From: a virus
Taxonomy: Duplodnaviria > Heunggongvirae > Uroviricota > Caudoviricetes
Direction: 5' to 3' (one strand)
DNA length: 36,304 nt
IMG/VR virus record: IMGVR_UViG_2512047041_000001
Position numbers and translations under genes: made by a program. The notes below the pieces were generated by a model, which was not told the origin of the DNA, searched no databases, and was given only the letters and a program-made list of their open reading frames with translations. Of the stretch, positions 1,985 through 36,304 are shown in pieces (within the stretch, counting starts at the first letter, position 1; each line of letters opens with the position of its first letter).

Positions 1985-2536
1985 ATGAAAACACTTATCG
2001 TTTCAACTGTATTGGCATTCATAACATTTTCTGCGCAGGCTGCAGCATTTCAGGTCACTAGTAATGAAATAAAAACAGGAGAGCAACTTACAACGTCTCA
2101 TGTCTTTTCTGGATTTGGGTGTGAAGGTGGTAATACATCGCCCTCATTAACCTGGTCTGGTGTTCCTGAAGGTACCAAAAGCTTTGCCGTAACTGTATAT
2201 GATCCAGATGCACTTACAGGCAGTGGTTGGTGGCATTGGACTGTTGTTAATATTCCAGCAACAATAACATATTTGCCCGTTGATGCAGGGAGACGTGATG
2301 GAACAAAACTGCCGACTGGTGCTGTTCAAGGCCGAAATGATTTTGGCTATGCTGGGTTTGGTGGCGCATGTCCTCCTAAAGGAGATAAACCACATCATTA
2401 CCAGTTTAAAGTATGGGCTCTAAAAACTGAAAAGATTCCTGTAGATTCTAACTCCAGCGGAGCGTTAGTTGGTTATATGCTTAATGCTAATAAAATCGCA
2501 ACCGCTGAGATAACACCAGTTTATGAGATAAAGTAG
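1985..2536 (+). CDS. ybcL: Secreted PEBP/Raf-kinase-inhibitor-like protein (YbcL-like, DLP12-type moron)
   Basis: 183 aa with N-terminal signal peptide (MKTLIVSTVLAFITFSAQA); matches the remembered YbcL/PEBP family; RBS AAAGAGG upstream. Confidence 0.8.
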   Translation: MKTLIVSTVLAFITFSAQAAAFQVTSNEIKTGEQLTTSHVFSGFGCEGGNTSPSLTWSGVPEGTKSFAVTVYDPDALTGSGWWHWTVVNIPATITYLPVDAGRRDGTKLPTGAVQGRNDFGYAGFGGACPPKGDKPHHYQFKVWALKTEKIPVDSNSSGALVGYMLNANKIATAEITPVYEIK

Positions 2537-2545
2537 GGTGAGAGT

Positions 2546-3343
2546 ATGCTGGCAAGAGGTAAGACTAACTTAAAGATCGAAGAAATACGGATGCATAAAC
2601 ATCATGAGATTCATAGGGTTAAGCCTCTTATGCCAGCTTTGTGTCGTATCCGTCAGGGAAAGAAAGTTATCAATTGGGAGACGCATACTTTAACTGTTGA
2701 TAATAATCAAATAATATTATTTCCTTGTGGTTATGAATTTTATATTGAGAATTATCCTGAAGCAGGGCTTTATCTTGCAGAAATGCTTTACTTACCCATT
2801 GATTTAATTGAGAGTTTCCAAAAACTTTATACGGTAACTGATCAAATACGTAACAAAACAAGTTTCTTTTTACCTCAGAATCCTGAGTTAATATATTGTT
2901 GGGAGCAACTAAAAACATCTGTTTCCCGAGGCTTCTCAACTAAAATTCAGGAGCACTTAGCAATGGGCGTTCTACTTTCGTTAGGAGTGAATCATGTTAA
3001 TCATTTACTTTTATCATATAGTAAACAATCATTGATAAGTCGTTGTTATAACCTGCTGCTATCCGAACCCGGCACAAAATGGACAGCAAACAAGGTTGCT
3101 CGATATCTCTACATTTCTGTTTCTACATTACATCGCCGTCTAGCAAGCGAGGGGGTAAGTTTCCAAAGTATACTGGACGATGTGAGGTTAAATAATGCGT
3201 TGTCTGCTATACAAACGACGGTAAAACCTATAAGCGAGATTGCCAGAGAAAATGGTTATAAGTGTCCTTCTCGTTTTACTGAAAGATTTCATAATCGTTT
3301 TAATATAACACCAAGAGAGATAAGAAAAGCTTCCAGAGAGTAA
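2546..3343 (+). CDS. ybcM: AraC/XylS-family transcriptional regulator (YbcM-like)
   Basis: 265 aa; C-terminal AraC-type HTH region ([18 protein letters not shown] ... [26 protein letters not shown]); AT-rich gene. Confidence 0.8.
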
Positions 3344-3408
3344 AAGTGTTTTAAGAAGGAGCAATTCTATCGATTTTGATTTTGGGAAATCAACACGGCA
3401 TAATTATG

Positions 3409-3435
3409 TCACCGGAGCCTGAACAACTCCGGTGA
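3409..3435 (+). other. Perfect 9-bp inverted repeat (TCACCGGAG ... CTCCGGTGA) downstream of ybcM; possible terminator or regulatory hairpin without a T-tract
   Basis: Inverted repeat read directly in the sequence. Confidence 0.3.
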
Positions 3436-3459
3436 CTTCTGCGCTAAACGGGGACGTTT

Positions 3460-3561
3460 ATGCGCACATACAATCCAAACTCTCTTCTCCCTTCACAGAT
3501 GCAGAAATGCACCTGCAATTCTTTGCATCTAGCGTTTGACCTCTGCGGAGGTGAAGCGTGA
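3460..3561 (+). CDS. ylcH: Small protein YlcH-like (33 aa), not in the supplied ORF track
   Basis: Translation [33 protein letters not shown]; position between ybcM and ybcN as in DLP12; stop overlaps the ybcN GTG start. Confidence 0.45.
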
Positions 3562-4013
3562 ACCTCTCACAAGACGGCATCAAATTACATCGCGGCAACT
3601 TCACCGCTATCGGTCGGCAGATCCAGCCTTATCTGGAGGAGGGCAAATGCTTTCGCATGGTGCTTAAACCGTGGCGTGAGAAACGCAGTCTTTCCCAGAA
3701 TGCACTCAGCCACATGTGGTACAGCGAAATCAGTGAATACCTCATCAGCAGGGGTAAAACGTTCGCCACTCCAGCTTGGGTAAAAGATGCTCTCAAACAC
3801 ACATATCTCGGTTATGAAACCAAAGACCTGGTTGATGTCGTAACCGGTGATATTACCACTATCCAGTCGTTACGCCATACCTCCGATCTTGATACCGGAG
3901 AGATGTATGTCTTCCTGTGTAAGGTTGAAGCCTGGGCGGTGAATATTGGCTGCCACCTGACTATTCCGCAGAGCTGCGAGTTCCAGCTGCTCCGCGACAA
4001 GCAGGAGGCGTAA
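3558..4013 (+). CDS. ybcN: NinB/Orf-family recombination protein (YbcN-like)
   Basis: 151 aa matching remembered YbcN/NinB; GTG start; stop overlaps the ninE start (TAATG). Confidence 0.85.
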
Positions 4014-4183
4014 TGGCTACACCGCTTATTCGTGTCATGAACGGACACATCTACAGAGTATCAAATCGTCGTAAGCGTAAGCCTGAGCTGAAGCCATCCG
4101 AAATACCAACACTGCTCGGATATACCGCTAGCCTGGTTGATAAAAAATGGTTGCGACTGGCAGCAAGGAGGAATCATGGCTGA
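4013..4183 (+). CDS. ninE: NinE-like small protein (56 aa), not in the supplied ORF track
   Basis: Translation [56 protein letters not shown], basic C-terminus as in lambda NinE; nin-region position. Confidence 0.6.
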   Translation: MATPLIRVMNGHIYRVSNRRKRKPELKPSEIPTLLGYTASLVDKKWLRLAARRNHG

Positions 4184-4466
4184 TTTGAGAAAAGCAGCGC
4201 GTGGTCGGGAATGCCAGGTAAGAATCCCTGGCGTATGTAATGGCAATTCTGAAACGTCTGTACTGGCACATATCCGGCTGGCTGGATTGTGCGGTACCGG
4301 TATCAAACCGCCAGACCTGATTGCCACCATTGCATGTTCTGCCTGCCACGACGAAATCGACCGCCGCACACATTTTGTCGATGCTGCATATGCAAAAGAA
4401 TGCGCGCTGGAAGGTATGGCGAGAACACAGGTTATCTGGCTGAAAGAGGGGGTTATTAAGGCGTGA
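4177..4466 (+). CDS. ybcO: YbcO-like protein (DUF1364, putative nuclease, Cys-rich)
   Basis: Start taken at MADLRK with RBS AGGAGG upstream; Cys-rich motif CNGNSET ... CSACHDEID; matches remembered DLP12 YbcO. Confidence 0.75.
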
Positions 4467-4825
4467 ATACCTACAGTATCACATTACCCTGGCCTCCGAG
4501 CAATAATCGCTATTACCGCCATAATCGCGGGCGCACGCACGTCAGTGCAGAGGGGCAGGCATACCGCGATAACGTCGCCCGAATCATTAAAAACGCAATG
4601 CTGGATATCGGCCTGGCTATGCCTGTGAAAATCCGCATTGAGTGCCACATGCCGGATCGCCGTAGCCGTGACCTGGATAATCTGCAAAAAGCCGCTTTTG
4701 ACGCACTCACTAAAGCAGGTTTCTGGCTGGATGATGCTCAGGTCGTTGATTACCGCGTTGTGAAGATGCCTGTTACCAAAGGTGGGAGGCTGGAACTGAC
4801 CATCACCGAAATGGGGAATGAATGA
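4463..4825 (+). CDS. rusA: RusA Holliday-junction resolvase
   Basis: 120 aa matching remembered RusA ([18 protein letters not shown] ...); translationally coupled to ybcO. Confidence 0.9.
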
Positions 4826-4962
4826 TGTTTGAGTTTAATATGGCAGAACTTCTTCGCCACCGCTGGGGGCGTCTGCGCTTATATCGTTTCCCCGGCTCTG
4901 TTTTGACCGATTACCGAATACTGAAGAATTACGCCAAAACACTGACAGGAGCAGGAGTATGA
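4822..4962 (+). CDS. ylcG: YlcG-like small protein (46 aa), not in the supplied ORF track
   Basis: Translation [46 protein letters not shown]; start overlaps the rusA stop. Confidence 0.6.
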
Positions 4963-5047
4963 AGTCAGAGATAACAATCAACTAATACTGTTTTGTTGAT
5001 TTTTGCTTGTAATTGGCGTTCTGGTCTGAGTTTTGTGGAGTAAGTTG

Positions 5048-5425
5048 ATGCGTGATATTCAGATGGTTCTTGAGCGTTGGGGAGCGTGGGCGGCTAATAA
5101 TCATGAAGATGTGACCTGGTCGTCCATTGCCGCCGGTTTTAAGGGATTAATTCCTTCAAAAGTAAAATCTCGCCCGCAATGTTGTGACGATGACGCGATG
5201 ATCATTTGCGGGTGCATGGCCCGTCTGAAAAAGAACAACAGCGATTTGCATGATTTATTGGTGGACTATTATGTCGGCGGCATGACTTTTATGGCGCTTG
5301 CACGTAAGCATGGGCGATCTGATTGTTGGGTTGGCAGGATGCTCCAGAAAGCTGAGGGCGTAGTGGAGGGTATGCTGATGGTGTTGGATCTCCGATTGGA
5401 GATGGATGGTGATTGTTCGAAATAA
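5048..5425 (+). CDS. quuD: Late-gene antiterminator Q (phage 82/DLP12 QuuD type)
   Basis: Matches remembered QuuD from [24 protein letters not shown]; Cys-rich zinc-binding region [12 protein letters not shown]. Confidence 0.8.
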
Positions 5426-5580: not shown

Positions 5581-6105
5581 TTATTGTTTAACCCATAATA
5601 ATTCATTGACATTGAATCCCAACTTTTGAGCGGTTCGCACATAGTCTGCTTTTACTTTATCTGGAATAGTTGGGGTCCTTGCCAGAATCCATAGGTATTC
5701 TCTGTTCGGACCACTGACAAGAGCATACTTATACTCATCATCCAGTTTGATTACATTATAGCCACCATAGAAGGGGCCAAAAAACGAAACCTTCAACGCT
5801 GCAGTTTTAGTATCTCCAGTAAAGTATGCTTTACCTTCGCTCTCGCTCCATTTATTTTTCGTTGGATCGTATCCACGGTTAAGTACACGAATCCCTCCGT
5901 CGTTCCGTTTTCCATAGGTAGCGCTGACCTGTTCCAGACCACGTTCGAACCGGTTCTCGAGGCGAGCTATTTCATACCATTTTCCGAGGTAGCGGTTGGC
6001 GTCAAAATTTGTAATCGGCTGCACACCTTTAGGTGGTGTCGGGGCCTTACATGCTATAAGAGTGAAAGAGAGTGCAATGCCAGTCAACACAGGCCATAAC
6101 TTCAT
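5581..6105 (-). CDS. Outer-membrane lipocalin lipoprotein, Blc paralogue
   Basis: 174 aa; lipoprotein signal with lipobox LIAC; lipocalin motifs (GKWYEIARLENRFERG, FFGPFYGGYNVI) closely resembling remembered E. coli Blc. Confidence 0.8.
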   Translation of the reverse strand: MKLWPVLTGIALSFTLIACKAPTPPKGVQPITNFDANRYLGKWYEIARLENRFERGLEQVSATYGKRNDGGIRVLNRGYDPTKNKWSESEGKAYFTGDTKTAALKVSFFGPFYGGYNVIKLDDEYKYALVSGPNREYLWILARTPTIPDKVKADYVRTAQKLGFNVNELLWVKQ

Positions 6106-6297
6106 AATAAATCCTGTACTTTTGATAGTTGAGAGTAAGTATGAAAGATAGATGATTACGACCGATCACTTAAAGAACTTTCATACTATATTAGGAATAG
6201 TCTATAACAGAAAAATTGTCAGTGATGACGCCAGAAAGGCAATTTATTCCGTGCACTACACAGTTTATGTGTTAATGAATTAGTCAAGGGGGAGAAT

Positions 6298-7257
6298 ATG
6301 ATAAAAAAACCTGTGATTGGAATCAGCGGTTGTTTGGCCGGCTCTGCTGTTCGTTTTGATGGTGGTCACAAAAGAGCTGACTTTTTAATGGACAAATTAG
6401 TGGAATGGGTAACATTCAGACCAGTATGTCCGGAAATGGCTATAGGGCTGCCAGTTCCGCGTCCTGCTCTACGTCTTGTGCGCTCGACGCAAGGAAATAT
6501 ACGGATGTGTTTCAGCCACGACCAGAATGAGGATGTGACAGAGAGAATGACAGAGTTTAGTCGTTCTTATATGGACAAATTAAAGGATGTATCGGGGTTT
6601 GTGGTTTGTGCTAAATCTCCCAGCTGTGGCATGGAGCGCGTGCGTGTCTATGATGAAAATGGTAATCGAGGTCGTAAAGATGGAGTGGGACTATTTACGA
6701 GCACTTTGATGGAAAAGTTTTCTTGGCTACCGGTTGAAGAGGATGGGCGATTACATGATCCAGTGCTTCGTGAGAATTTTGTTGAAAGAGTTTTTGCTTT
6801 GCATGAGCTCAATCACCTTTACAAGGAGAAATTATCAAGAAGAGAGTTATTAGCTTTTCATAGTCGTTATAAGCTTCAGTTGTTGGCGCATAGTCAGGCA
6901 GGCTATAAAGATATGGGACCATTTGTGGCTGCAATACACGAGTGGGCGGACCTTGAATCATACTTTGAGGTGTATCGTGATAAGCTGATGGCGATTCTCA
7001 GAAAACCTGCATCACGTAAAAATCACACGAATGTGCTGATGCATATACAGGGGTATTTTAGTAACTACTTAAGTACACGCCAGCGTAAAGAGTTGAGCGA
7101 GGTTATACTTAACTATCGTTCTGGCACATTACCTCTTCTTGCGCCGTTGACTCTGCTGAAGCATTATCTGGGTGAGTATCCTAATGATTACTTGCTTACA
7201 CAGAATTACTTCGATCCCTATCCGGACGAACTGGCTCTAAGACTGATGGTAAATTAA
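6298..7257 (+). CDS. DUF523 (TudS-like [4Fe-4S] desulfidase domain) fused to DUF1722 (YbgA-like); RudS-like putative tRNA 4-thiouridine desulfidase
   Basis: 319 aa; N-terminal Cys pattern (GISGCLAG, PVCPEM, KSPSCGME) consistent with the three-Cys TudS cluster site; C-terminal half resembles YbgA/DUF1722; assignment from memory, not searched. Confidence 0.55.
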   Translation: MIKKPVIGISGCLAGSAVRFDGGHKRADFLMDKLVEWVTFRPVCPEMAIGLPVPRPALRLVRSTQGNIRMCFSHDQNEDVTERMTEFSRSYMDKLKDVSGFVVCAKSPSCGMERVRVYDENGNRGRKDGVGLFTSTLMEKFSWLPVEEDGRLHDPVLRENFVERVFALHELNHLYKEKLSRRELLAFHSRYKLQLLAHSQAGYKDMGPFVAAIHEWADLESYFEVYRDKLMAILRKPASRKNHTNVLMHIQGYFSNYLSTRQRKELSEVILNYRSGTLPLLAPLTLLKHYLGEYPNDYLLTQNYFDPYPDELALRLMVN

Positions 7258-7599: not shown

Positions 7600-8340
7600 G
7601 TGGATAATATGCCATACATATGTTCTATCATTTTGGTGTTGAACTCGTTTGATGTCCGAATTGGTAAAGAAGATATTTTGTTTAAAAAAGGAAGTGCTGT
7701 TCTCATTGATTACAATTTAAAAGATTTTTTTTCATCAAATATAGATCATGTAATGATCGTAGATGTTGAAGAGAAAACAGTTAATGATTTCTTTAAAAGC
7801 AACACACTCTCACCTTTTTCTGTAAGAAGGTTTTATCCGGCATACTTGATGGTGGAATGTGAAGATTTTTCATTGTTAAAGAACTTGATTGCATGCTTGA
7901 ATTGTGATGGCAGAACTGTGGATTTTGTTAGAAATCAAATATCACTTGCATGTCTTGCTATCTTATCTTCAGAGAAAATAGTGCAAAGTTTTTTATTTGG
8001 ATGTCTTAATAGTTTAGGAAGTAAAGTTAAGGCTATTATTCACACGGATATATCTGCAGCATGGAGACTTTGTGATATATCTTCAAGACTGTATCTGAGT
8101 GAAAGTCTGTTAAAAAGAAAATTAAAGCACGAAGGCTTATCATTTAGTAAGTTAATTCTTGAAGAGCGAATGGTGATGGCGGAAAGGTTATTAAGCTACA
8201 ATTTATATTCTGTTGGAAAAGTTGCTGAGATATGCGGTTATGAAAACACGTCATATTTTGTAAGTGTTTTCAGAAGATATTTTGGTGTTCCTCCCCATCA
8301 ATATTCATCAAGACTTTTTTTAGAAAAAGACATGATGTAA
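7600..8340 (+). CDS. AraC/XylS-family transcriptional regulator (AppY/EnvY-like subfamily), AT-rich
   Basis: 246 aa; C-terminal AraC HTH region (VGKVAEICGYENTSYFVSVFRRYFGVPPHQY); about 340 bp AT-rich leader upstream. Confidence 0.7.
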   Translation: MDNMPYICSIILVLNSFDVRIGKEDILFKKGSAVLIDYNLKDFFSSNIDHVMIVDVEEKTVNDFFKSNTLSPFSVRRFYPAYLMVECEDFSLLKNLIACLNCDGRTVDFVRNQISLACLAILSSEKIVQSFLFGCLNSLGSKVKAIIHTDISAAWRLCDISSRLYLSESLLKRKLKHEGLSFSKLILEERMVMAERLLSYNLYSVGKVAEICGYENTSYFVSVFRRYFGVPPHQYSSRLFLEKDMM

Positions 8341-8528: not shown

Positions 8529-8744
8529 ATGAAATCCATGGATAAGTTAACAACGGGCATTGCCTACGGCACCTCCGCAGGCAGTGCTGGCTACTGGTTT
8601 TTACAGCTGCTCGATAAAGTCACGCCCTCACAGTGGGCAGCAATAGGTGTGCTGGGTAGCTTGGTATTTGGCTTGCTGACGTACCTGACAAACCTTTATT
8701 TCAAGATTAAAGAAGATAAGCGCAAGGCTGCGAGAGGTGAATAA
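8529..8744 (+). CDS. essD: Holin, phage-21 S21 pinholin type (EssD-like)
   Basis: 71 aa, two transmembrane segments and charged C-terminus; matches remembered EssD/S21. Confidence 0.85.
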
Positions 8745-9241
8745 TGCCTCCATCATTACGAAAAGCCGTTGCTGCTGCTATTGGTGGCGGAGCAATTGCT
8801 ATAGCATCAGTGTTAATCACTGGCTCAAGTGGTAACGATGGTCTGGAGGGTGTCAGCTATATACCATACAAAGATATTGTTGGTGTATGGACTGTATGTC
8901 ACGGGCATACAGGAAAAGACATCATGCTCGGTAAAACGTATACCAAAGCAGAATGCAAAGCACTCTTGAATAAAGACCTTGCCACTGTCGCCAGACAAAT
9001 TAACCCGTACATCAAAGTCGATATACCGGAAACAACGCGCGGCGCTCTTTACTCATTCGTTTACAACGTGGGTGCTGGCAATTTCAGAACATCGACGCTT
9101 CTTCGCAAAATAAACCAGGGCGATATCAAAGGCGCATGTGATCAGCTACGTCGCTGGACATATGCTGGCGGTAAGCAATGGAAAGGTCTCATGACTCGTC
9201 GTGAGATTGAGCGTGAAATCTGTTTGTGGGGTCAGCAATGA
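8744..9241 (+). CDS. rrrD: SAR endolysin (lysozyme, RrrD/R21-like)
   Basis: 165 aa; N-terminal signal-anchor-release segment ([20 protein letters not shown]) followed by a lysozyme domain; start overlaps the holin stop. Confidence 0.85.
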
Positions 9242-9699
9242 ACAGAGTAACCGTGATTATCTCCGCTCTGGTTATCTGCATCATCGTCTGCCTGTCATGG
9301 GCTGTTAATCATTACCGTGATAACGCCATTACCTACAAAGCCCAGCGCGACAAAAATGCCAGAGAACTGAAGCTGGCGAACGCGGCAATTACTGACATGC
9401 AGATGCGTCAGCGTGATGTTGCTGCGCTCGATGCAAAATACACGAAGGAGTTAGCTGATGCGAAAGCTGAAAATGATGCTCTGCGTGATGATGTTGCCGC
9501 TGGTCGTCGTCGGTTGCACATCAAAGCAGTCTGTCAGTCAGTGCGTGAAGCCACCACCGCCTCCGGCGTGGATAATGCAGCCTCCCCCCGACTGGCAGAC
9601 ACCGCTGAACGGGATTATTTCACCCTCAGAGAGAGGCTGATCACTATGCAAAAACAACTGGAAGGAACCCAGAAGTATATTAATGAGCAGTGCAGATAG
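9238..9699 (+). CDS. rzpD: Rz i-spanin (inner-membrane spanin)
   Basis: 153 aa from [17 protein letters not shown] with N-terminal transmembrane segment and coiled-coil periplasmic domain; ATGA overlap with the endolysin stop. Confidence 0.85.
9458..9640 (+). CDS. rzoD: Rz1 o-spanin (outer-membrane lipoprotein) embedded in the +1 frame of Rz
   Basis: 60 aa with lipobox (VVVGC) and proline-rich body ([15 protein letters not shown]); fully nested within Rz. Confidence 0.8.
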
Positions 9700-9730: not shown

Positions 9731-10024
9731 TTATTGTGAGCAATACACACGCGCTTCCAGCGGAGTATAAATGCCTAAAGTAATAAAACCGAGAAATCCA
9801 TTTACGAATGTTTGCTGGGTTTCTGTTTTAACAACATTTTCTGCGCCGCCACAAATTTTGGCTGCATCAACAGTTTTCTCCTGTCCAATTCCCGAAACGA
9901 AGAAATGATGGGTGATGGTTTCCTTTGGTGTTACTGCTGTCGGTTTGTTTCCAACAGTAAACGTCTGTTGAGCACATCCTGTAATAAGCATTGCCAGAGC
10001 GGCAGAAAACAACATTTTTTTCAT
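9731..10024 (-). CDS. borD: Bor lipoprotein (serum-resistance/Iss family lysogenic conversion protein)
   Basis: 97 aa from MKKMLFSAALAMLITGCAQQ; lipobox ITGC; matches remembered lambda Bor. Confidence 0.85.
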   Translation of the reverse strand: MKKMLFSAALAMLITGCAQQTFTVGNKPTAVTPKETITHHFFVSGIGQEKTVDAAKICGGAENVVKTETQQTFVNGFLGFITLGIYTPLEARVYCSQ

Positions 10025-10140
10025 CTTATTATCCTGCATTGTTAAAAACGGCAGAATCCTATGTGACAACAATTAAACGATAGTTAAATGGATTGATGAA
10101 AATTAAAACTATATAGGTGGATGCTCAGCCTATTGGAGGA

Positions 10141-30825: not shown

Positions 30826-31425
30826 ATGCGTAAATTATGTGCTGTTATTCTGTCCGCAGTAGTCTGGCTGGTTGCCGCTGGTACGCCAGCGAGCGCAGCA
30901 GAGCATCAGTCCACACTAAGCGCCGGGTATCTTCAGACCCATACTGATATGCCAGGCAGTGATGACCTGAAGGGCATTAACGTGAAATACCGTTATGAAT
31001 TTACGGACACGCTGGGGCTGGTGACGTCATTCAGTTATGCCAATGCCAAAGATGAGCAAAAAACGCATTACAGCGATACCCGCTGGCATGAAGATTCCGT
31101 GCGTAACCGCTGGTTCAGCATGATGGCGGGGCCATCTGTACGCGTGAATGAATGGTTCAGTGCTTATGCGATGGCAGGTGTGGCTTACAGCCGTGTTTCG
31201 ACGTTCTCCGGGGATTATCTCCGCGTAACTGACAACAAGGGGAAAACGCACGATGTGCTGACCGGAAGTGATGACGATCGCCACAGCAACACGTCTCTGG
31301 CGTGGGGAGCTGGCGTGCAGTTTAACCCGACCGAATCCGTGGCCATTGATATTGCTTATGAAGGCTCCGGCAGTGGCGACTGGCGCACTGACGGTTTCAT
31401 CGTGGGTGTCGGTTATAAGTTCTGA
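30826..31425 (+). CDS. lom: Lom outer-membrane beta-barrel protein (Ail/Lom/OmpX family)
   Basis: 199 aa with signal peptide and C-terminal aromatic residue (GYKF); matches remembered lambda Lom. Confidence 0.85.
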   Translation: MRKLCAVILSAVVWLVAAGTPASAAEHQSTLSAGYLQTHTDMPGSDDLKGINVKYRYEFTDTLGLVTSFSYANAKDEQKTHYSDTRWHEDSVRNRWFSMMAGPSVRVNEWFSAYAMAGVAYSRVSTFSGDYLRVTDNKGKTHDVLTGSDDDRHSNTSLAWGAGVQFNPTESVAIDIAYEGSGSGDWRTDGFIVGVGYKF

Positions 31426-31483: not shown

Positions 31484-33889
31484 GTGGATATGGCAGCAGT
31501 AAAAATCTCAGGTGTGCTGAAAGATGGTGCGGGAAAACCAATACAGAACTGCACTATTCAACTGAAGGCAAAGCGTAACAGCACCACGGTACTGGTGAAC
31601 ACGGTGGCCTCTGAAAATCCGGATGAAGCCGGGCGTTACAGCATGGATGTTGAGTATGGCCAGTACAGCGTTATCCTGCTTGTTGAAGGTTTTCCGCCTT
31701 CACATGCCGGAACCATTACCGTCTATGAAGGTTCCAGACCAGGTACGCTGAATGATTTTCTCGGTGCCATGACGGAAGATGATGTCATGCCGGAGGCATT
31801 GCGTCGTTTTGAGGAAATGGTGGAAGAAGCGGCACGCAACGCCGAAGCCGCCTCTCAGAGCGCAGCGGCGGCAAAGAAATCCGAAACTGCAGCGGCATCA
31901 TCGAAGAACGCGGCGAAAACCTCAGAAACGAATGCAGCTAATAGTGCACAGGCGGCAGCGACCTCACAGACTGCATCAGAAAACTCCGCGACAGCAGCCA
32001 AAAAATCAGAAACCAACGCGAAAAATAGCGAGACAGCCGCAAAGACGAGCGAAACCAACGCAAAGTCCAGCCAGACGGCAGCGAAGACCAGCGAAACGAA
32101 TGCCAAAGCCAGTGAAACTGCGGCAAAAAACAGCCAGGTTGCAGCAGCCCAAAGCGAGAGCGCGGCAGCCGGTTCTGCGACTTCAGCAACTGGATCAGCA
32201 ACTGCTGCGGCTAACAGCCAGAAAGCTGCGAAGACGAGTGAAACTAACGCAAAGTCCAGCCAGACGGCAGCGAAGACCAGCGAAACGAATGCCAAAGCCA
32301 GTGAAACTGCGGCGAAAAACAGTCAGGATGCAGCAGCCCAAAGCGAGAGTGCCGCAGCTGGTTCTGCAAGTGCGGCGGCTTCTTCTGCCTCTGCATCAGC
32401 CAACAGTCAAAAAGCTGCAAAAACCAGTGAAACCAACGCAAAGGCGAGCGAGACTGCGGCGGCTAACTCAGCGAAAGCATCGGCAGCAAGCCAGACGGCT
32501 GCAAAAGCAAGTGAAGACGCAGCCAGAGAGTATGCAAGCCAGGCTGCGGAGCCGTATAAACAAGTTTTGCAGCCGCTTCCCGATGTGTGGATACCGTTTA
32601 ACGATTCACTGGATATGATTACGGGCTTTTCGCCGTCATATAAAAAGATTGTTATTGGTGATGATGAAATAACGATGCCTGGCGATAAGGTTGTAAAGTT
32701 TAAACGCGCATCAACTGCCACATATATCAATAAATCAGGCGTATTTAGTGTTGCTAAAATTGATGAGCCACGATTTGAAAAAGAAGGTTTATTGATTGAA
32801 GGACAGCGCACTAACTATTTTGTTAAATCCAATATCCCCGCTGAATGGACGAGTACCAGCAATATCGATAAAACTAATAATGGTGTTGATGAATTTGGTT
32901 TTTCATATGCCAAAATGCGAACAAAAGATAATATGACAGGACAATCATCTGCACTTAGTCTGCATACATGCAGTGCATCCCGGGGGATTGATGTTAGTGG
33001 CGATAATAAGTATTGCACTGTTTCATGCAGGGTTAAAGCTCCTGATGGTCTTCGTTGTCGTTTGCGTTTTGAAAAATACGATGGGTCGGTTTATACATTT
33101 TTAGGAGATGCTTATTTAACTTTCGGAACTCTGATAATAGAAAAAACTGGCGGAGCAGCCAATAGAATAGCAGCTACTGCAACTAAAGATCCGGTTACAG
33201 GGTGGATTTTCTATGAGGCAACTATAGAAGCTGTTGAAGGTGAAACCTTAATTGGCGCAATGATTCAGTATGCGCCGAAAAAAGGTGGTGTAACTGAAGC
33301 GGGAGATTATATTTACCTTGCAACACCACAATTTGAAAACGGCGGATGTGCTTCATCTTTTGTTATTACGACAACTGTACCCGCAACCCGCTCCAGTGAT
33401 ATGGTGACGATCCCAACTGAAAATAATATCTATAATAGACCGCTTACGTGCCTGGTCGAGGTTAATAGAAATTGGGGCGATATTCCTCCTAATGTAGCAC
33501 CGCGTATTTTTGATTTTTCTGGTGTGCCACCTATTGAGTCAATTACATACGCTTTTAACACAACTGAGAAATATTACGGTCAGCTTTATATGCAAACTTA
33601 TAAAGCGTCGACAAGTACTTACGTTTCTAGTGTGTTTGCTGGTCGAACTGATGTTCGAAAATTCATTGGTGGTTTTAATATTTATTCTGATGGTACTAAA
33701 CGAGTAGTTTCTAACGGTGAGGCTACTAAAACCATGAAAACGGAGTGGACGGGCGTAAAAACACGGACCTTTATTCGAATTGGAGGTCAAGCCACATCGG
33801 GAACTCGTCATCTATTCGGCCATTTGAGAAATCTTCGTCTCTGGCATAAAGAATTAACTGATGCGCAAATGGGGGAGAGTATTAAATGA
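31484..33889 (+). CDS. stf: Side tail fibre Stf, mosaic: lambda-Stf-like N-terminus, tandem fibre repeats, and a low-GC C-terminal domain with LamG-like signature
   Basis: N-terminus MAAVKISGVLKDGAGKPIQNCTIQLKA as in lambda Stf; repeated AAKTSETNAK units; C-terminal GHLRNLRLWHKELTDAQM resembles the LamG-type motif. Confidence 0.8.
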   Translation: MDMAAVKISGVLKDGAGKPIQNCTIQLKAKRNSTTVLVNTVASENPDEAGRYSMDVEYGQYSVILLVEGFPPSHAGTITVYEGSRPGTLNDFLGAMTEDDVMPEALRRFEEMVEEAARNAEAASQSAAAAKKSETAAASSKNAAKTSETNAANSAQAAATSQTASENSATAAKKSETNAKNSETAAKTSETNAKSSQTAAKTSETNAKASETAAKNSQVAAAQSESAAAGSATSATGSATAAANSQKAAKTSETNAKSSQTAAKTSETNAKASETAAKNSQDAAAQSESAAAGSASAAASSASASANSQKAAKTSETNAKASETAAANSAKASAASQTAAKASEDAAREYASQAAEPYKQVLQPLPDVWIPFNDSLDMITGFSPSYKKIVIGDDEITMPGDKVVKFKRASTATYINKSGVFSVAKIDEPRFEKEGLLIEGQRTNYFVKSNIPAEWTSTSNIDKTNNGVDEFGFSYAKMRTKDNMTGQSSALSLHTCSASRGIDVSGDNKYCTVSCRVKAPDGLRCRLRFEKYDGSVYTFLGDAYLTFGTLIIEKTGGAANRIAATATKDPVTGWIFYEATIEAVEGETLIGAMIQYAPKKGGVTEAGDYIYLATPQFENGGCASSFVITTTVPATRSSDMVTIPTENNIYNRPLTCLVEVNRNWGDIPPNVAPRIFDFSGVPPIESITYAFNTTEKYYGQLYMQTYKASTSTYVSSVFAGRTDVRKFIGGFNIYSDGTKRVVSNGEATKTMKTEWTGVKTRTFIRIGGQATSGTRHLFGHLRNLRLWHKELTDAQMGESIK
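31990..32520 (+). repeat. Tandem direct repeats inside stf (about 180-bp units, with about 42-bp sub-repeats encoding ...AAKTSETNAKxSxT...)
   Basis: Near-identical segments around 32033-32140 and 32222-32330 read directly. Confidence 0.8.
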
Positions 33890-34167
33890 AAGATTTAACG
33901 CTCAAATTTGCAGACAGGGCCGACTTTTCGGCCTTTATGGAGAGTATTGGCTATTATGATGACGAGTCGATGCAGGATGATATTCTTATTGACGTGATAG
34001 GTAACGTGTACAAAGAAACCGGAGAACTGACTGAAGATGGCGAACCGGTATGTGTTAAGGAGGACGGATATTTTGTAAACGTGCGCATCATTAATGATGC
34101 AAAAAAATCGTCAATATTCGATAAATACGCGATTGTTGTTGAGCATCAACTTCGTGGCTGGATGTGA
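33886..34167 (+). CDS. Hypothetical acidic protein (93 aa), translationally coupled to stf
   Basis: ATGA overlap with the stf stop; low-GC; no recognisable family. Confidence 0.5.
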   Translation: MKDLTLKFADRADFSAFMESIGYYDDESMQDDILIDVIGNVYKETGELTEDGEPVCVKEDGYFVNVRIINDAKKSSIFDKYAIVVEHQLRGWM

Positions 34168-34176
34168 GGGAGACAA

Positions 34177-34881
34177 ATGGCTACATCGACAGTAATTCCA
34201 GGAGACATCACCACGTTAAAGGGAGATGTCAGTAAAGCCAAGGAAGATATTTCCTCAATTAACGGAAAAGTATCAACGCTTCAGACTGATATGACCAGTG
34301 CAAAGCAGGATATCAGCACCAGATACACAAAAACTGAAGTTGATAATAAGCTGAAAAACAAAGTGGAAGTGAACGATCTGGAAAGTGGTCGTTATGGTGG
34401 AGATTTTTACCCGCTGACTGGTCGTGAAGCGTTTTATTTGTGGGGATTGGGCACGACTACAGCGGCGGCAAACCTTTATCTTAATCCTGACCCCGCAATT
34501 TCGTCTGTACTGCGGTCCACATCGTCTATCCGCTATAAACATTCAGTAGAGACGATAGATTCGGAGCACGCCGATCTCATTTTCAGGATGCGCCCTGTGT
34601 GGTACAGGTCGCAATGCGAAAATGACAGGCGCGATTGGGGATTCTATGGATTGATTGCCGAGGAAGTAGGAGAAATTGCCCCTCAGTTTGTTCACTGGCG
34701 ACCAGCTAACGAGAATGATGCTCCTGAAGCTATTTCCAGCAATGGCCTTGTTGCCGAAGGTGTAATGTACGAACGTCTGGTTGTTCCACTGATTCACCAT
34801 ATCCAGAAACTGACTGAAAGAGTTGATGAACTTGAGTCAGAATTAAAGTTGTTATCAACTTCCCGAAGCGATATCGGATAA
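34177..34881 (+). CDS. Tail-fibre-like protein: coiled-coil N-terminus plus C-terminal intramolecular chaperone (peptidase S74-like) domain
   Basis: RBS GAGGGAG upstream; C-terminal segment SSIRYKHSVETID ... WGFYGLIAEEVGEIAPQFV ... VMYERLVVPLIHHIQKLTERVDELE fits the S74 chaperone pattern (Ser-x4-Lys, GLIAQEV-like core). Confidence 0.55.
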   Translation: MATSTVIPGDITTLKGDVSKAKEDISSINGKVSTLQTDMTSAKQDISTRYTKTEVDNKLKNKVEVNDLESGRYGGDFYPLTGREAFYLWGLGTTTAAANLYLNPDPAISSVLRSTSSIRYKHSVETIDSEHADLIFRMRPVWYRSQCENDRRDWGFYGLIAEEVGEIAPQFVHWRPANENDAPEAISSNGLVAEGVMYERLVVPLIHHIQKLTERVDELESELKLLSTSRSDIG

Positions 34882-34891
34882 AGGAGGAGTA

Positions 34892-35185
34892 ATGGATATA
34901 ACACCTTTCCTTCATGCACTTTGTGCTGTGGCTGCGCAGGTACTGGTTGGTCTTTTTACCGGAAACTGGGCTTACGGGGCGATAGCCGGTTGTACGTTCT
35001 TCATTGCGCGTGAACATACCCAGGCAGAATATCGCTGGATTGAAATGTTCGGGCATGGCAAGCGAATGAATATGCCGTGGTGGGGCGGTTTTGATCCGCG
35101 CGCGTGGGATGTGGCAAGTCTGATGGATTTTGCTGTGCCGGTGGTGGCGTGTCTGCTGGTCTGGCTGTTGGTTAATCGTGGGTGA
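34892..35185 (+). CDS. Small integral membrane protein (97 aa, 2-3 predicted transmembrane segments), unknown function
   Basis: RBS AAGGAGG upstream; hydrophobic segments LHALCAVAAQVLVGLF, AIAGCTFFIA, FAVPVVACLLVWLLV. Confidence 0.5.
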   Translation: MDITPFLHALCAVAAQVLVGLFTGNWAYGAIAGCTFFIAREHTQAEYRWIEMFGHGKRMNMPWWGGFDPRAWDVASLMDFAVPVVACLLVWLLVNRG

Positions 35186-35198
35186 AAAAAGGTGAGCT

Positions 35199-35323
35199 GT
35201 ATATGCAACGGAGGAAGAAACCTCGTTGCGGGAAGCCTGGAAGAAGTATCGGGTGTTGCTGAACCGTGTTGATACATCAACTGCACCTGATATTGAGTGG
35301 CCTACGAACCCTGTCAGGGAGTA
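35199..35323 (+). pseudogene. tfa: 3' remnant of a tail fibre assembly gene (tfa): the last ~40 codons only
   Basis: Translation ...[38 protein letters not shown] matches the conserved Tfa C-terminus; in-frame stop directly upstream. Confidence 0.7.
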
Positions 35324-35378
35324 ATCATTGGGATTATGCCGCAGCACGTCTTAAGCAAGAACGTGCTGCGGTTGGATG

Positions 35379-36047
35379 CTATTTTTTCCCTGAAGCGGAA
35401 AACATTACTACAGTACCTTGAACCTTGGTTTTAACATTCTCGAAATGCTCTGAGAGTATATGTGTTAAGCCTTCTTCGGAATCTTTTGTGTTTGAAAAGA
35501 TGCCTTTCTGATTGTAAATGCGCATCAGTTTTTGACCGAAGCTATTGTGCACAACTCCATCGCCAAGAATTGTGGCTCCGTATAGAGTTCCATCGTCAGT
35601 TAAGGCCTGCGCCGCATTGCGTATTACACAGCTTTTTGTAGATATATTTCCAGGCAGGCAGTGAAGAAGGTAAAACATGGAAATGGAATCAAATTGACCA
35701 TGTAACGCCGCGGGATAAGGTTCAAAAACATCATGGCTAATTTTATGTTTAATTTTTGATTCCCCAGCCCTTGTAGATGCCGCGTTCAGGCTAGCTTCGT
35801 TCAAATCCATTAAAGATATCAGACTACTCTCAGGTACGTGAGTAAGGTAAAACCCAGTTCCAACACCAATATCCAGATGGTTGTTACCTAAATGTTCCAG
35901 AAAGTGTGGAAGAAGGTGTTCCTTTGTAGGACATCCCCATGCAAGCCGATTTGATACTCCCAAAACCCACCAGTCATAAAGCTTTAGGGTAAGTGGTGTG
36001 TAAATTTTAGCCCCATCATCTGTGTTTTTTTTCATTAATTTCACCAT
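35379..36047 (-). CDS. ybcY: Class I SAM-dependent methyltransferase (YbcY-like), low-GC
   Basis: Motif I LDIGVGTGFY, acidic beta-2 end (LMDLN), motif FDSISMFYLLHCLPG; no DPPY/NPPY DNA-methyltransferase motif; flanked by tfa fragments as remembered for DLP12. Confidence 0.65.
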   Translation of the reverse strand: MVKLMKKNTDDGAKIYTPLTLKLYDWWVLGVSNRLAWGCPTKEHLLPHFLEHLGNNHLDIGVGTGFYLTHVPESSLISLMDLNEASLNAASTRAGESKIKHKISHDVFEPYPAALHGQFDSISMFYLLHCLPGNISTKSCVIRNAAQALTDDGTLYGATILGDGVVHNSFGQKLMRIYNQKGIFSNTKDSEEGLTHILSEHFENVKTKVQGTVVMFSASGKK

Positions 36048-36103: not shown

Positions 36104-36304
36104 ATGCTGCCGCAGCATAGCGATATTGAAATAGCCTGGTATGCTTCGATACAGCAGGAGCCGAATGGCTGGAAGACCGTCACCACACAGTTCTACATCC
36201 AGGAATTCAGTGAGTATATTGCGCCACTGCAGGATGCTGGGAAATCGCAACGGAGGAAGAAAGATCGTTGCTGGAGGCATGGAATAAATATCGGGTATTG
36301 TTGA
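36104..36304 (+). pseudogene. tfa: 5'-truncated, frameshifted tail fibre assembly gene fragment (tfa-like), running to the window edge
   Basis: HSDIEIAWYASIQQEPNGWKTVTTQFYIQEFSEYIAPLQDA matches Tfa family proteins; the conserved continuation EIATEEERSLLEAWNKYRVLL is in a different frame from about 36245; no Tfa N-terminus upstream. Confidence 0.65.

What the first reader, a model, noticed from the sequence alone, without database searches (positions are those of the whole stretch)
34892..35185. Small membrane protein after the tail fibre genes: candidate superinfection exclusion or conversion factor
A 97-aa protein with 2-3 hydrophobic helices and no lipobox sits where lambdoid phages often carry envelope-acting morons (cor, lom, bor). 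It is GC-richer than its upstream neighbours and has a strong RBS, suggesting separate acquisition.
Basis: inference. Interest (0 to 1): 0.45.

Follow-up and report, generated by a model that had tools for sequence, protein, structure and literature searches.

The report
Conserved membrane protein trailing phage fibre genes
This is a real gene for a small, strongly conserved inner-membrane protein of unknown function that sits directly after the receptor-binding (tail fibre or tailspike) gene in many unrelated temperate phages, is present in about a third of complete E. coli genomes, and is a reasonable but unproven candidate for protecting or altering the cell envelope of the lysogen.

Summary
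Window 34892-35185 (+) is a 97-aa gene with an AGGAGG ribosome-binding site, three predicted helices, no lipobox, and higher GC than the fibre genes upstream.

It is under purifying selection (dN/dS 0.11-0.27). It belongs to PHROG 1443 (unknown function). It matches nothing in Pfam, NCBIfam, PADLOC or PDB, has no informative fold neighbour, and I found no literature on it.

- **Position.** The gene lies directly 3' of the receptor-binding gene in lambda-like, P22-like, P2/HP1-like, P1-like, phage-plasmid and DGR-carrying phages. In about half of the roughly 216 loci examined (mostly near-identical E. coli prophages), that upstream gene ends in a Peptidase_S74 self-chaperone domain.
- **Mobility.** The gene moves as a discrete DNA block (window 34880-35261).
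- **Virulent phages.** Three virulent phages that carry tailspike cassettes have only dead remnants of it. A fourth has the same fibre cassette as the window and no copy at all.
- **Chromosomal copies.** Solitary intact copies persist in Aeromonas, Leclercia/Silvania and sphingomonad chromosomes.

Best reading (about 0.4): an accessory inner-membrane factor that benefits the lysogen and acts on a conserved envelope target. That makes it exclusion- or conversion-like, but not specific to one receptor.

The parts
34892..35185 (+). The finding: a 97-aa three-helix inner-membrane protein, PHROG 1443 (unknown function). Residues invariant in alignment A1 are D2 H8 Q16 G29 C34 R40 E41 T43 Q44 A45 E46 Y47 R48 W49 I50 R58 M61 P62 W64 G65 G66 F67 D68 W72 D79 P83.
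34882..34887 (+). Shine-Dalgarno AGGAGG, 4 nt before the ATG and starting one base after the stop codon of the preceding gene.
   Evidence: sequence
34880..35261 (+). Mobile DNA block (RBS + gene + 76 nt). It is about 96% identical in lambdoid phages that carry a different gene upstream (a 92-aa ORF instead of the S74 fibre) and different genes downstream (sitABCD).
34177..34881 (+). 234-aa short tail-fibre protein ending in a Peptidase_S74 intramolecular chaperone domain. This is the commonest type of upstream neighbour for the family.
33886..34167 (+). 93-aa protein, PHROG 1361 (unknown function). It follows Stf-type fibres and is the second commonest upstream neighbour of the family (34 loci).
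31484..33889 (+). Side tail fibre Stf (801 aa, phage_tail_N domain). This is the start of the exchangeable fibre cassette. GC drops from about 0.55 to about 0.40 near 32500.
35205..35324 (+). 3' remnant of a tail fibre assembly (tfa) gene directly after the finding. It marks the right junction of the cassette insertion.
35338..35371 (.). Strong hairpin (-29.9 kcal/mol, z = -4) followed by a U-run. It is the probable end of the late/tail transcription unit and lies opposite the methyltransferase gene.

Best explanation
**What is shown.**
- The ORF is a real gene under purifying selection. It encodes a compact three-helix integral membrane protein of an uncharacterised family.
- The family is a passenger of receptor-binding-protein (RBP) cassettes. 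It sits directly 3' of the last fibre or tailspike gene in six unrelated temperate-phage architectures.
- It moves as a discrete DNA block.
- It is lost or decays when such cassettes land in virulent phages.
- It survives as a solitary gene in decayed prophage sites and in bacterial chromosomes.

**What is inferred.**
- It is an accessory gene that pays off in the lysogen or the cell. It is not a virion or assembly component.
- It works in the cytoplasmic membrane through a conserved polar cluster. The cluster comprises H8, R40, E41, Q44, E46, R58 and D79 plus the MPWWGGFD loop, all on one face of the membrane.
- The cluster binds or modifies a conserved envelope component, such as a lipid-linked intermediate or a conserved inner-membrane protein. 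The target is not a particular outer-membrane receptor.
- The most likely pay-off is protection against superinfection at a step after adsorption, or altered display of the surface glycans that the linked RBPs target.
- Its constant position next to the RBP gene is explained mainly by co-transfer. Because it is the conserved right-hand flank of the most frequently exchanged phage module, it spreads with every cassette swap.
For: **Real gene.** Median dN/dS is 0.11-0.27. There are 583 homologues and 444 clusters at 50% identity. The AF2 model has pLDDT 92.9.

**Position rule.**
- Phage 21 and Lambda_ev203: stf, then a 92-aa ORF, then the gene.
- P22-like Gally and L210: tailspike, then the gene.
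- P2/HP1-like prophages of Aeromonas and Leclercia: the gene starts at or overlaps the end of an S74 fibre gene.
- P1-like: after the fibre genes and before lydB.
- Phage-plasmid.
- DGR phages: the gene lies directly upstream of bAvd and the reverse transcriptase, after a 383-aa ORF with no Pfam hit.
- Upstream neighbours match tail-fibre and tailspike PHROGs. Downstream neighbours are heterogeneous.
- In about 216 loci, about 108 have an S74-ending protein directly upstream and 34 have the 93-aa PHROG 1361 protein.

**Mobility.** Identity breakpoints lie at the RBS and 76 nt after the stop. The Gally copy still carries an approximately 80-nt remnant of an S74 gene end upstream.

**Dispensable for fibres and for lytic growth.**
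- HC6, PBM-2 and KFSST3 carry only truncated remnants after their tailspike genes.
- Virulent ESCO3 has the same arrangement of fibre, 93-aa ORF and S74 fibre, ending in a terminator with no copy.

**Independent expression is possible.** In Gally the gene lies after the late terminator, behind a promoter-like site, and next to int.

**Retention in hosts.**
- Aeromonas: between the pirin and RIO1 genes in L005, with the same pirin neighbour in at least three other Aeromonas loci.
- Leclercia/Silvania: two non-prophage sites, one equivalent to the Rac attachment region.
- Sphingomonads: next to ligA.
Against: - No exclusion, defence or conversion family matches.
- In this window there is no sigma-70-like promoter, and only 10 nt separate it from the fibre gene. 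Expression here is probably late, not from the repressed prophage.
- In P2-like prophages it is embedded inside the tail operon.
- Conservation is enzyme-like and not arms-race-like: about 60% identity between E. coli phage copies and Aeromonas/Comamonas copies, with nine invariant residues family-wide.
- Long-term vertical retention in Aeromonas suggests a physiological role.
- E. coli B carries three copies yet is the classical permissive host for T1-T7 (established knowledge). Any exclusion therefore cannot be broad.
- Topology is unresolved. K/R counts put the conserved loop in the cytoplasm in 278 of 311 members, but the Arg-rich C-tails of chromosomal members argue the opposite.
Confidence: 0.4

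Rival explanations
1. It is a host-type housekeeping membrane protein, either a small enzyme or a regulator of membrane or envelope homeostasis. Phages carry it as a fitness gene for the lysogen, unrelated to phage resistance. The RBP linkage is pure hitch-hiking.
For: - Solitary chromosomal copies at conserved sites occur in Aeromonas, Leclercia/Silvania and sphingomonads.
- Polar residues are invariant from gamma- to alpha-proteobacteria.
- dN/dS is low.
- Nothing matches in the defence library.
Against: - No conserved operon partner points to a pathway.
- The very strict position after RBP genes in six phage architectures is more than expected for a random fitness cargo gene.
- At least one 'chromosomal' site is the Rac attachment region, so that copy may be the survivor of a decayed prophage.
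Confidence: 0.25
2. It is a late-expressed helper of the producing cell. It changes the dying cell's membrane so that progeny virions or free fibres are not wasted on debris, or it otherwise aids release. This would be analogous in logic to T5 Llp.
For: - It is tightly coupled to, or overlaps, the fibre or tailspike gene in lambdoid, P2-like and some P22-like contexts.
- It is the last intact ORF before a terminator-like hairpin in the late operon.
Against: - It decays or is absent in virulent phages, which would profit most from such a function.
- Chromosomal orthologues exist without any phage.
- It forms an independent unit after the late terminator in Gally.
- An inner-membrane protein is poorly placed to mask outer-surface receptors.
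Confidence: 0.15
3. It is a tail-fibre assembly or maturation factor for fibres that lack a classical Tfa chaperone, that is, S74 self-chaperoned fibres or fibres paired with the 93-aa protein. It occupies the tfa slot.
For: - It sits where tfa would be, and a tfa remnant follows it.
- About half of upstream neighbours end in Peptidase_S74.
Against: - The identical fibre cassette works in virulent ESCO3 without it.
- S74 tailspikes of HC6 and PBM-2 function next to a dead remnant.
- It is an integral membrane protein, unlike known fibre chaperones.
- It also follows tailspikes with no S74 domain and exists in chromosomes without fibres.
Confidence: 0.05
4. It is a holin, antiholin or other lysis-timing membrane protein placed after the fibre gene, as with T4 t or T7 17.5.
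For: - Its size and three hydrophobic helices resemble class I holins.
- In the P1-like element it lies just upstream of a 104-aa ORF followed by lydB.
Against: - The window has its own complete lysis cassette: an S21-type holin at 8529-8744, an endolysin, Rz/Rz1.
- It matches no holin family in Pfam or PHROGs.
- Holins are not conserved at 60% identity across classes of bacteria.
- Solitary chromosomal copies exist.
Confidence: 0.03
5. It has no cellular function of its own. The conserved DNA is merely a recombination linker, the right-hand homology arm for exchange of fibre cassettes.
For: - The gene DNA is near-identical in phages with different upstream and downstream genes, with sharp breakpoints.
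- Duplicated tfa 3' ends nearby show recombination in this region.
Against: - Purifying selection acts on the protein, with dN/dS of 0.11-0.27 out to saturated dS.
- The fold prediction is confident.
- Residues are conserved between taxa that share no DNA similarity.
- A linker role may still exist alongside a protein function.
Confidence: 0.05

Closest known systems
PHROG 1443 (phage protein family, unknown function). RefSeq 'hypothetical protein' WP_000355609.1. One UniProt entry is named Ybl63. Phage 21 gene CPT_21_24 is annotated 'putative membrane protein'.
   Same: Full-length match at E = 3.5e-59 and 97% identity to the phage 21 protein. This is the family the protein belongs to.
   Different: Nothing. 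However, the family has no assigned function, no Pfam or NCBIfam model, and I found no publication on it.
Cor (phi80, N15, HK022) and T5 Llp: exclusion proteins encoded next to receptor-binding genes. What they do rests on established knowledge.
   Same: A small envelope protein encoded beside the receptor-binding gene, and an accessory gene.
   Different: Cor and Llp are outer-membrane or lipoprotein-type blockers of one receptor (FhuA). The protein here has no lipobox or signal peptide, is an integral inner-membrane protein, shows no sequence similarity, and is conserved irrespective of fibre type.
Inner-membrane superinfection-exclusion proteins: T4 Imm, P22 SieA, and HK97 gp15 (a relative of YebO). 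What they do rests on established knowledge; PMC10883804 covers SieA.
   Same: Small inner-membrane proteins encoded by phages. HK97 gp15 also has a chromosomal relative, as this family does.
   Different: No sequence similarity. Number of helices and conserved motifs differ. No functional test has been done here. Those genes are not tied to the fibre gene.
Conversion loci between tailspike and integrase of P22-like phages (gtrABC, oac), and small hydrophobic polymerase inhibitors of epsilon15 and D3 (Iap). Established knowledge.
   Same: In prophage Gally the gene occupies exactly this slot, after the late terminator. The linked RBPs are mostly glycan-directed types: S74 fibres, beta-helix tailspikes and lectin-like tips.
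   Different: No similarity to GtrA, GtrB or acyltransferase families. It is too small to be a glycosyl- or acetyltransferase of a known type. It is conserved in bacteria with very different surface glycans.
Class I holins placed after fibre genes (T4 t, T7 17.5). Established knowledge.
   Same: About 100 aa, three hydrophobic helices, and a position after the fibre gene.
   Different: The window has a separate complete lysis cassette. There is no holin family match. Sequence conservation and chromosomal solitary copies are unlike holins.

Membership tests
PHROG 1443 | Full-length profile match. | tested here: met
   E = 3.5e-59, residues 1-96 of 97.
Moron (Hendrix/Juhala sense) | Composition distinct from flanking phage genes. 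| tested here: met
   GC is 0.537 against 0.37-0.47 upstream.
Moron (Hendrix/Juhala sense) | Present or absent between otherwise related genomes, with discrete boundaries. | tested here: met
   Breakpoints lie at 34880 and 35261. The same fibre cassette occurs without the gene in ESCO3.
Moron (Hendrix/Juhala sense) | Own promoter and terminator, giving expression from the repressed prophage. | tested here: inconclusive
   In the window there is no promoter-like site and only a 10-nt gap, with a hairpin downstream. In Gally the gene follows the late terminator and a promoter-like site. No transcript data are available.
Cor / Llp type receptor-blocking lipoproteins | Signal peptide with lipobox, or outer-membrane location. 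| tested here: not met
   There is no basic n-region, and 'HALC' is not a lipobox (sequence). The protein has three membrane helices.
Cor / Llp type receptor-blocking lipoproteins | Co-variation with the receptor specificity of the phage. | tested here: not met
   The same protein (>= 80% identity) follows S74 fibres, ConA-like Stf tips and P22-type tailspikes.
Inner-membrane Sie proteins (Imm, SieA/SieB, HK97 gp15/YebO) | Sequence membership in the corresponding Pfam, PHROG or PADLOC models. | tested here: not met
   There are no hits at E <= 1 (Pfam, PADLOC) or E <= 0.1 (PHROGs), other than unknown-function families and a sub-threshold PhoR hit.
Inner-membrane Sie proteins (Imm, SieA/SieB, HK97 gp15/YebO) | Blocks DNA entry of superinfecting phage. 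| not testable with these tools
   This needs plating, adsorption and DNA-entry assays.
O-antigen conversion genes (GtrA/B/C, Oac) | Homology to GtrA flippase, glycosyltransferase or acyltransferase_3. | tested here: not met
   No Pfam or NCBIfam match.
O-antigen conversion genes (GtrA/B/C, Oac) | Location between tailspike and integrase in P22-like phages. | tested here: met
   Gally locus L002: tailspike at 2361-4760, the gene at 5001-5288, int at 5762-6835.
Holins | Membership of a holin family and a position in the lysis cassette. | tested here: not met
   No holin hit. The window's lysis cassette is at 8529-9699.
Tail fibre assembly chaperones (Tfa) | Needed by the adjacent fibre. | tested here: not met
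   Fibre and tailspike cassettes function in virulent phages with a dead remnant or without the gene. No Tfa family match.

The most novel reading that the evidence does not exclude
The family is a previously unrecognised miniature intramembrane enzyme or ligand-binding module with a new three-helix fold. An H/R/E/Q/E/R pocket sits at one membrane face. The protein remodels a universal lipid-linked envelope intermediate, such as an undecaprenyl- or lipid-phosphate species. Temperate phages of all tail types would have attached it to their receptor-binding cassettes as a generic surface-masking device that works whatever glycan the fibre targets. Bacteria such as Aeromonas would have domesticated it.
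Probability: 0.12. Interest if true: 0.75.

Novelty: new member of a known kind. Interest (0 to 1): 0.45.

Why it matters
- **Prevalence.** The gene is one of the commonest uncharacterised prophage genes in E. coli. It is in 35% of complete genomes, often in several copies, and occurs in strains such as Nissle 1917, ST131 and E. coli B.
- **Practical use.** Its rule of position makes it a marker for the 3' end of host-range cassettes in unannotated prophages.
- **If it blocks superinfection or alters surface glycans.** It would affect phage-therapy host-range prediction and our picture of how host-range modules and their companion genes spread together.
- **If it is a small membrane enzyme.** It would define a new fold and activity.
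- **Testability.** Either outcome can be tested cheaply, because E. coli K-12 did not surface among the hits and the protein is only 97 aa.

Tried and rejected
- **Sequence libraries.** Pfam, NCBIfam and PADLOC scans gave nothing usable. A profile search against PDB sequences gave one chance hit at E = 0.45.
- **Literature.** Searches by context, accession numbers, PHROG id and the name Ybl63 found nothing relevant. The Tai tail-assembly-interference paper was checked and is unrelated, because those genes lie upstream of the packaging module.
- **Second viral scan.** A second scan of viral contigs, led by a divergent family member, returned mostly the same E. coli loci.
- **Operon partners.** The search for a conserved partner among chromosomal copies found only heterogeneous neighbours.
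- **ORF caller.** My simple ORF caller is unreliable in high-GC alpha-proteobacterial loci, so only neighbours confirmed by Pfam or PHROG were used.
- **Promoters.** Promoter scans found no site for the gene in the window.
- **Topology.** The positive-inside rule gave conflicting signals.
- **Readings rejected.** The fibre-chaperone, holin and 'pure recombination linker' readings were considered and rejected for the reasons given under the rival explanations.
- **Stray annotation.** One Aeromonas member carries the UniRef name 'prolipoprotein diacylglyceryl transferase'. I treated this as an annotation error, because no Lgt family match appeared for the window protein.
Full report
**1. The observation**

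The ORF at 34892-35185 (+) exists as described. It starts with ATG, encodes 97 aa and ends with TGA. An AGGAGG lies at 34882-34887, 4 nt before the ATG, starting one base after the TAA of the preceding gene.

GC is 0.537 over 34900-35199. The distal fibre region (about 32600-34400) is 0.37-0.43, and the windows ending within or just before the gene start are 0.45-0.47.

An AlphaFold2 model built on 36 homologues is confident, with mean pLDDT 92.9. It shows three helices at 4-23, 26-53 and 74-96. Helices 1 and 3 and the first half of helix 2 are almost purely apolar. There is no lipobox and no basic signal-peptide n-region (read from the sequence).

The gene is not a chance ORF:
- 583 homologues were found at E <= 1e-3.
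- An exhaustive profile search found 444 clusters at 50% identity, almost all stand-alone proteins of 90-115 aa.
- Median pairwise dN/dS is 0.11-0.27 across all divergence classes.

The window is a lambdoid prophage at the DLP12/ompT site of an E. coli chromosome. RefSeq calls the product 'hypothetical protein' WP_000355609.1.

**2. What is around it**

The local gene order on the + strand is as follows:

| Coordinates | Feature |
|---|---|
| 30826-31425 | lom |
| 31484-33889 | side tail fibre Stf |
| 33886-34167 | 93-aa protein of PHROG 1361 |
| 34177-34881 | 234-aa short fibre ending in a Peptidase_S74 intramolecular chaperone domain |
| 34892-35185 | the finding |
| 35205-35324 | 3' remnant of a tail-fibre-assembly gene |
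| 35338-35371 | strong hairpin (-29.9 kcal/mol, z = -4) |
| 35379-36047 (- strand) | ybcY-like SAM methyltransferase |

A second tfa 3' remnant at 36247-36304 is an 84% direct repeat of 35205-35262.

No sigma-70-like promoter precedes the gene. In this window it is therefore the last intact ORF of the tail-fibre transcription unit, not a free-standing unit.

The window has its own lysis cassette far upstream, so the finding is not the phage's holin. That cassette comprises an S21-type holin at 8529-8744, an endolysin at 8744-9241, Rz/Rz1, and bor on the opposite strand.

**3. What it is related to**

It matches PHROG 1443 (unknown function) over its full length at E = 3.5e-59. It matches nothing else:
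- No Pfam, NCBIfam or PADLOC family.
- No PDB sequence.

Every source name is 'hypothetical protein', apart from one 'Ybl63' and phage 21's 'putative membrane protein'. Full-text searches found no paper on it.

It is very common. It is present in 1888 of 5426 complete E. coli genomes, with a median of two copies and up to seven. Of the 3824 places, 57 are on plasmids.

Conservation is striking for a small phage protein. E. coli phage copies are about 60% identical to Aeromonas and Comamonas copies. 26 columns are invariant in alignment A1. H8, R40, E41, Q44, A45, E46, R58, W72 and P83 remain invariant in a much more diverse alignment. The core motif is A/G-R-E-x-x-Q-A-E-Y-R-W-I ... G-x-R-x-N-M-P-W-W-G-G-F-D ... 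W ... D ... P.

All these residues lie at the same end of the three helices or in the loop between helices 2 and 3, that is, on one face of the membrane.

Which face is unresolved. K/R counts put the loop in the cytoplasm in 278 of 311 members. The Arg-rich C-terminal tails of chromosomal members (for example ANRRRPRRR) argue for the reverse orientation.

**4. The rule of position**

Across very different genomes the gene lies directly 3' of the receptor-binding gene or its small companion:

| Phage type | Arrangement |
|---|---|
| Phage 21 and Lambda_ev phages | stf, 92-aa ORF, the gene, then sitABCD |
| P22-like prophage Gally and another P22-like contig (L210) | tailspike, the gene |
| P2/HP1-like prophages of Aeromonas media and Leclercia | S74 fibre whose end meets or overlaps the start of the gene, followed by further tail genes |
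| P1-like element of Leclercia | two fibre genes each followed by a 94-95-aa ORF, the gene, a 104-aa ORF, lydB |
| SSU5-like phage-plasmid | after the fibre genes |
| Comamonas prophage | gpJ, 72-aa ORF, the gene |
| Two DGR-carrying elements | 383-aa ORF (no Pfam hit), the gene, bAvd, reverse transcriptase |
| Cryptic Rac prophage of E. coli B | stf, 92-aa ORF, the gene, tfa remnant, pinR |

Taken together, upstream neighbours match tail-fibre and tailspike PHROGs, while downstream neighbours are heterogeneous.

- An S74-ending protein in about 108 loci. Of these, 39 resemble the window's 234-aa protein. Another 66 form a cluster of 346-aa proteins whose S74 domain Pfam confirms. L006, L007 and L176 make up the rest.
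- The 93-aa PHROG 1361 protein in 34 loci.

**5. It moves as a unit**

Lambdoid phages with a different upstream gene match the window only from 34880 (the RBS) to 35261 (76 nt past the stop), at about 96% identity.

A four-way alignment was made of the window, phage 21, Gally and the phage-plasmid. It shows near-identity inside the gene and unrelated sequence outside it. The exception is that the non-coding region upstream of the Gally copy still contains about 80 nt homologous to the 3' end of the window's S74 gene.

The gene has therefore been carried from an S74-fibre context into a P22-like genome. It also forms the conserved right-hand flank of a cassette whose left part is swapped freely.

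**6. It is dispensable for fibres and for lytic growth**

Three unrelated virulent phages carry only dead remnants directly after a tailspike gene:
- Siphovirus HC6 and N4-like PBM-2 share the same S74 endosialidase cassette. Both carry the same truncated remnant ('...ANIPWWGGFDWRAWDLPSLLD' then a stop, with the N-terminal 40 residues missing).
- Kuttervirus KFSST3 retains only about the first 35 residues.

The virulent Nonagvirus ESCO3 has the same arrangement as the window: fibre, 93-aa ORF, S74 fibre. That arrangement is followed at once by a terminator, with neither the gene nor a remnant.

This argues against an assembly role. It argues that the gene's benefit is realised in temperate phages or in cells.

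**7. It persists in cells**

- **Aeromonas.** In L005 the gene lies between the pirin and RIO1-kinase genes, with no phage genes within 6 kb. At least three other Aeromonas loci share the pirin neighbour.
- **Leclercia and Silvania.** There are two non-prophage sites. One lies between ttcA and ompN/ydbK, which is the Rac attachment region in E. coli. That copy is probably the last survivor of a decayed prophage.
- **Sphingomonads.** The gene lies next to ligA.

No conserved operon partner emerged.

**8. How it most likely works**

Shown:
- It is a real, conserved, three-helix membrane protein.
- It is genetically linked to RBP cassettes and is independently mobile.
- It is dispensable for fibre function.
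- It is retained in lysogens, cryptic prophages and chromosomes.

Inferred: it is an accessory factor that benefits the lysogen or the cell. It uses a conserved polar pocket at one membrane face to bind or modify a conserved envelope component.

The most plausible pay-off is exclusion after adsorption, or altered display of surface glycans. Two points favour this:
- The linked RBPs are mostly glycan-directed types.
- In Gally the gene sits after the late terminator (L002 4789-4809), behind a promoter-like site (4826-4855), and next to int. That is the classical conversion slot of P22-like phages.

I put this reading at about 0.4. The points against it are:
- No promoter in the window, and embedding in late operons.
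- No match to any known exclusion or defence family.
- Enzyme-like conservation that does not track fibre type.
- Long-term retention in Aeromonas.
- E. coli B carries three copies yet is the classical permissive host for T1-T7 (established knowledge), so any exclusion cannot be broad.

The main rival (0.25) is a housekeeping-type membrane function carried as a fitness gene. Lesser rivals are:
- a late helper that protects progeny (0.15);
- a fibre maturation factor (0.05, largely refuted);
- a holin or lysis-timing protein (0.03);
- a pure recombination linker (0.05, contradicted by dN/dS).

**9. Comparison with what is known**

It belongs to PHROG 1443 and to nothing else.

It works, at most, like the small phage-encoded envelope proteins Cor, Llp, Imm, SieA and HK97 gp15, or the conversion loci of P22-like phages. 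It fails every membership test for those families that could be run here. It has no lipobox, no homology and no co-variation with receptor specificity.

It meets two of the three moron criteria: distinct composition, and presence or absence with sharp boundaries. The third, its own promoter and terminator, is inconclusive.

**10. Verdict**

The gene is best filed as a new family within the known kind 'accessory membrane proteins of temperate phages'. It has an unusually strict linkage to host-range cassettes and unusually strong conservation.

Interest is moderate (0.45). The gene is very common, uncharacterised and cheap to test, but nothing here shows a surprising mechanism.

The most novel reading still open is a new miniature intramembrane enzyme used as a generic surface-masking device. 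I give that about 0.12 probability.

Noticed in passing
L160 3965-4120 (phage HC6); L222 3465-3620 (phage PBM-2); L223 3480-3605 (phage KFSST3): Unannotated dead remnants of the family lie directly after tailspike genes in three unrelated virulent phages. HC6 (a siphovirus) and PBM-2 (N4-like) share the same S74 endosialidase cassette and the same remnant, so the cassette has moved between phage families.
   Followed up: yes
L221 2689-5424 (E. coli B, Rac prophage): In E. coli B the cryptic Rac prophage carries stf, a 92-aa ORF, the 97-aa gene and a tfa remnant before pinR, where K-12 has stfR-tfaR. A solitary copy in Silvania/Leclercia lies at the equivalent ttcA/ompN/ydbK site.
   Followed up: partly
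L117 and L119, 4785-8054: In two diversity-generating retroelement cassettes (Comamonas nitrativorans, Pigmentiphaga) a family member is inserted between a 383-aa upstream ORF with no Pfam hit (the presumed variable target gene) and bAvd / reverse transcriptase.
   Followed up: partly
window 33886-34167, and the equivalent ORFs in L001, L003, L156: A 92-95-aa protein (PHROG 1361, unknown function) follows Stf-type and Laminin_G_3-type fibre genes, often overlapping their stop. In a P1-like element it occurs after each of two fibre genes. It may be a trans-acting fibre chaperone that replaces Tfa.
   Followed up: partly
window 35205-35262 and 36247-36304: Two 84%-identical direct repeats, both 3' ends of tail-fibre-assembly genes, flank the ybcY-like SAM methyltransferase (35379-36047, - strand). 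This suggests the methyltransferase was inserted or retained by recombination between tfa copies.
   Followed up: partly
L031, L058 (IMG/VR contigs); protein P0003: Stop-loss variants of 146-150 aa read through into the tfa remnant. One such cluster has 205 member sequences.
   Followed up: no
proteins P0143, P0190, P0250: Family members of 140-146 aa carry an acidic insert of about 45 aa in the loop between the RWIExFG and MPWWGG motifs. This could help settle which side of the membrane the loop faces.
   Followed up: no
window about 31850-32600 (inside stf): A long, nearly perfect Ala/Ser/Thr/Lys-rich repeat region lies in the side tail fibre ('AAKTSETNAKSSQTAAKTSETNAKASETAAKNSQ...'). AT skew reaches 0.66, and long spurious ORFs appear in other frames.
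   Followed up: no
window 7600-8340: A 246-aa ORF lies just upstream of the lysis cassette. Its C-terminus looks like an AraC-type helix-turn-helix. It is a possible regulatory cargo gene. bor (9731-10072, - strand) and lom (30826-31425) are also present.
   Followed up: no
L001 5386-8835 (phage 21) and L162: In phage 21 and the Lambda_ev phages the gene is followed on the opposite strand by a complete sitABCD iron/manganese transporter operon. This shows that the region just downstream is a cargo hot spot.
   Followed up: no
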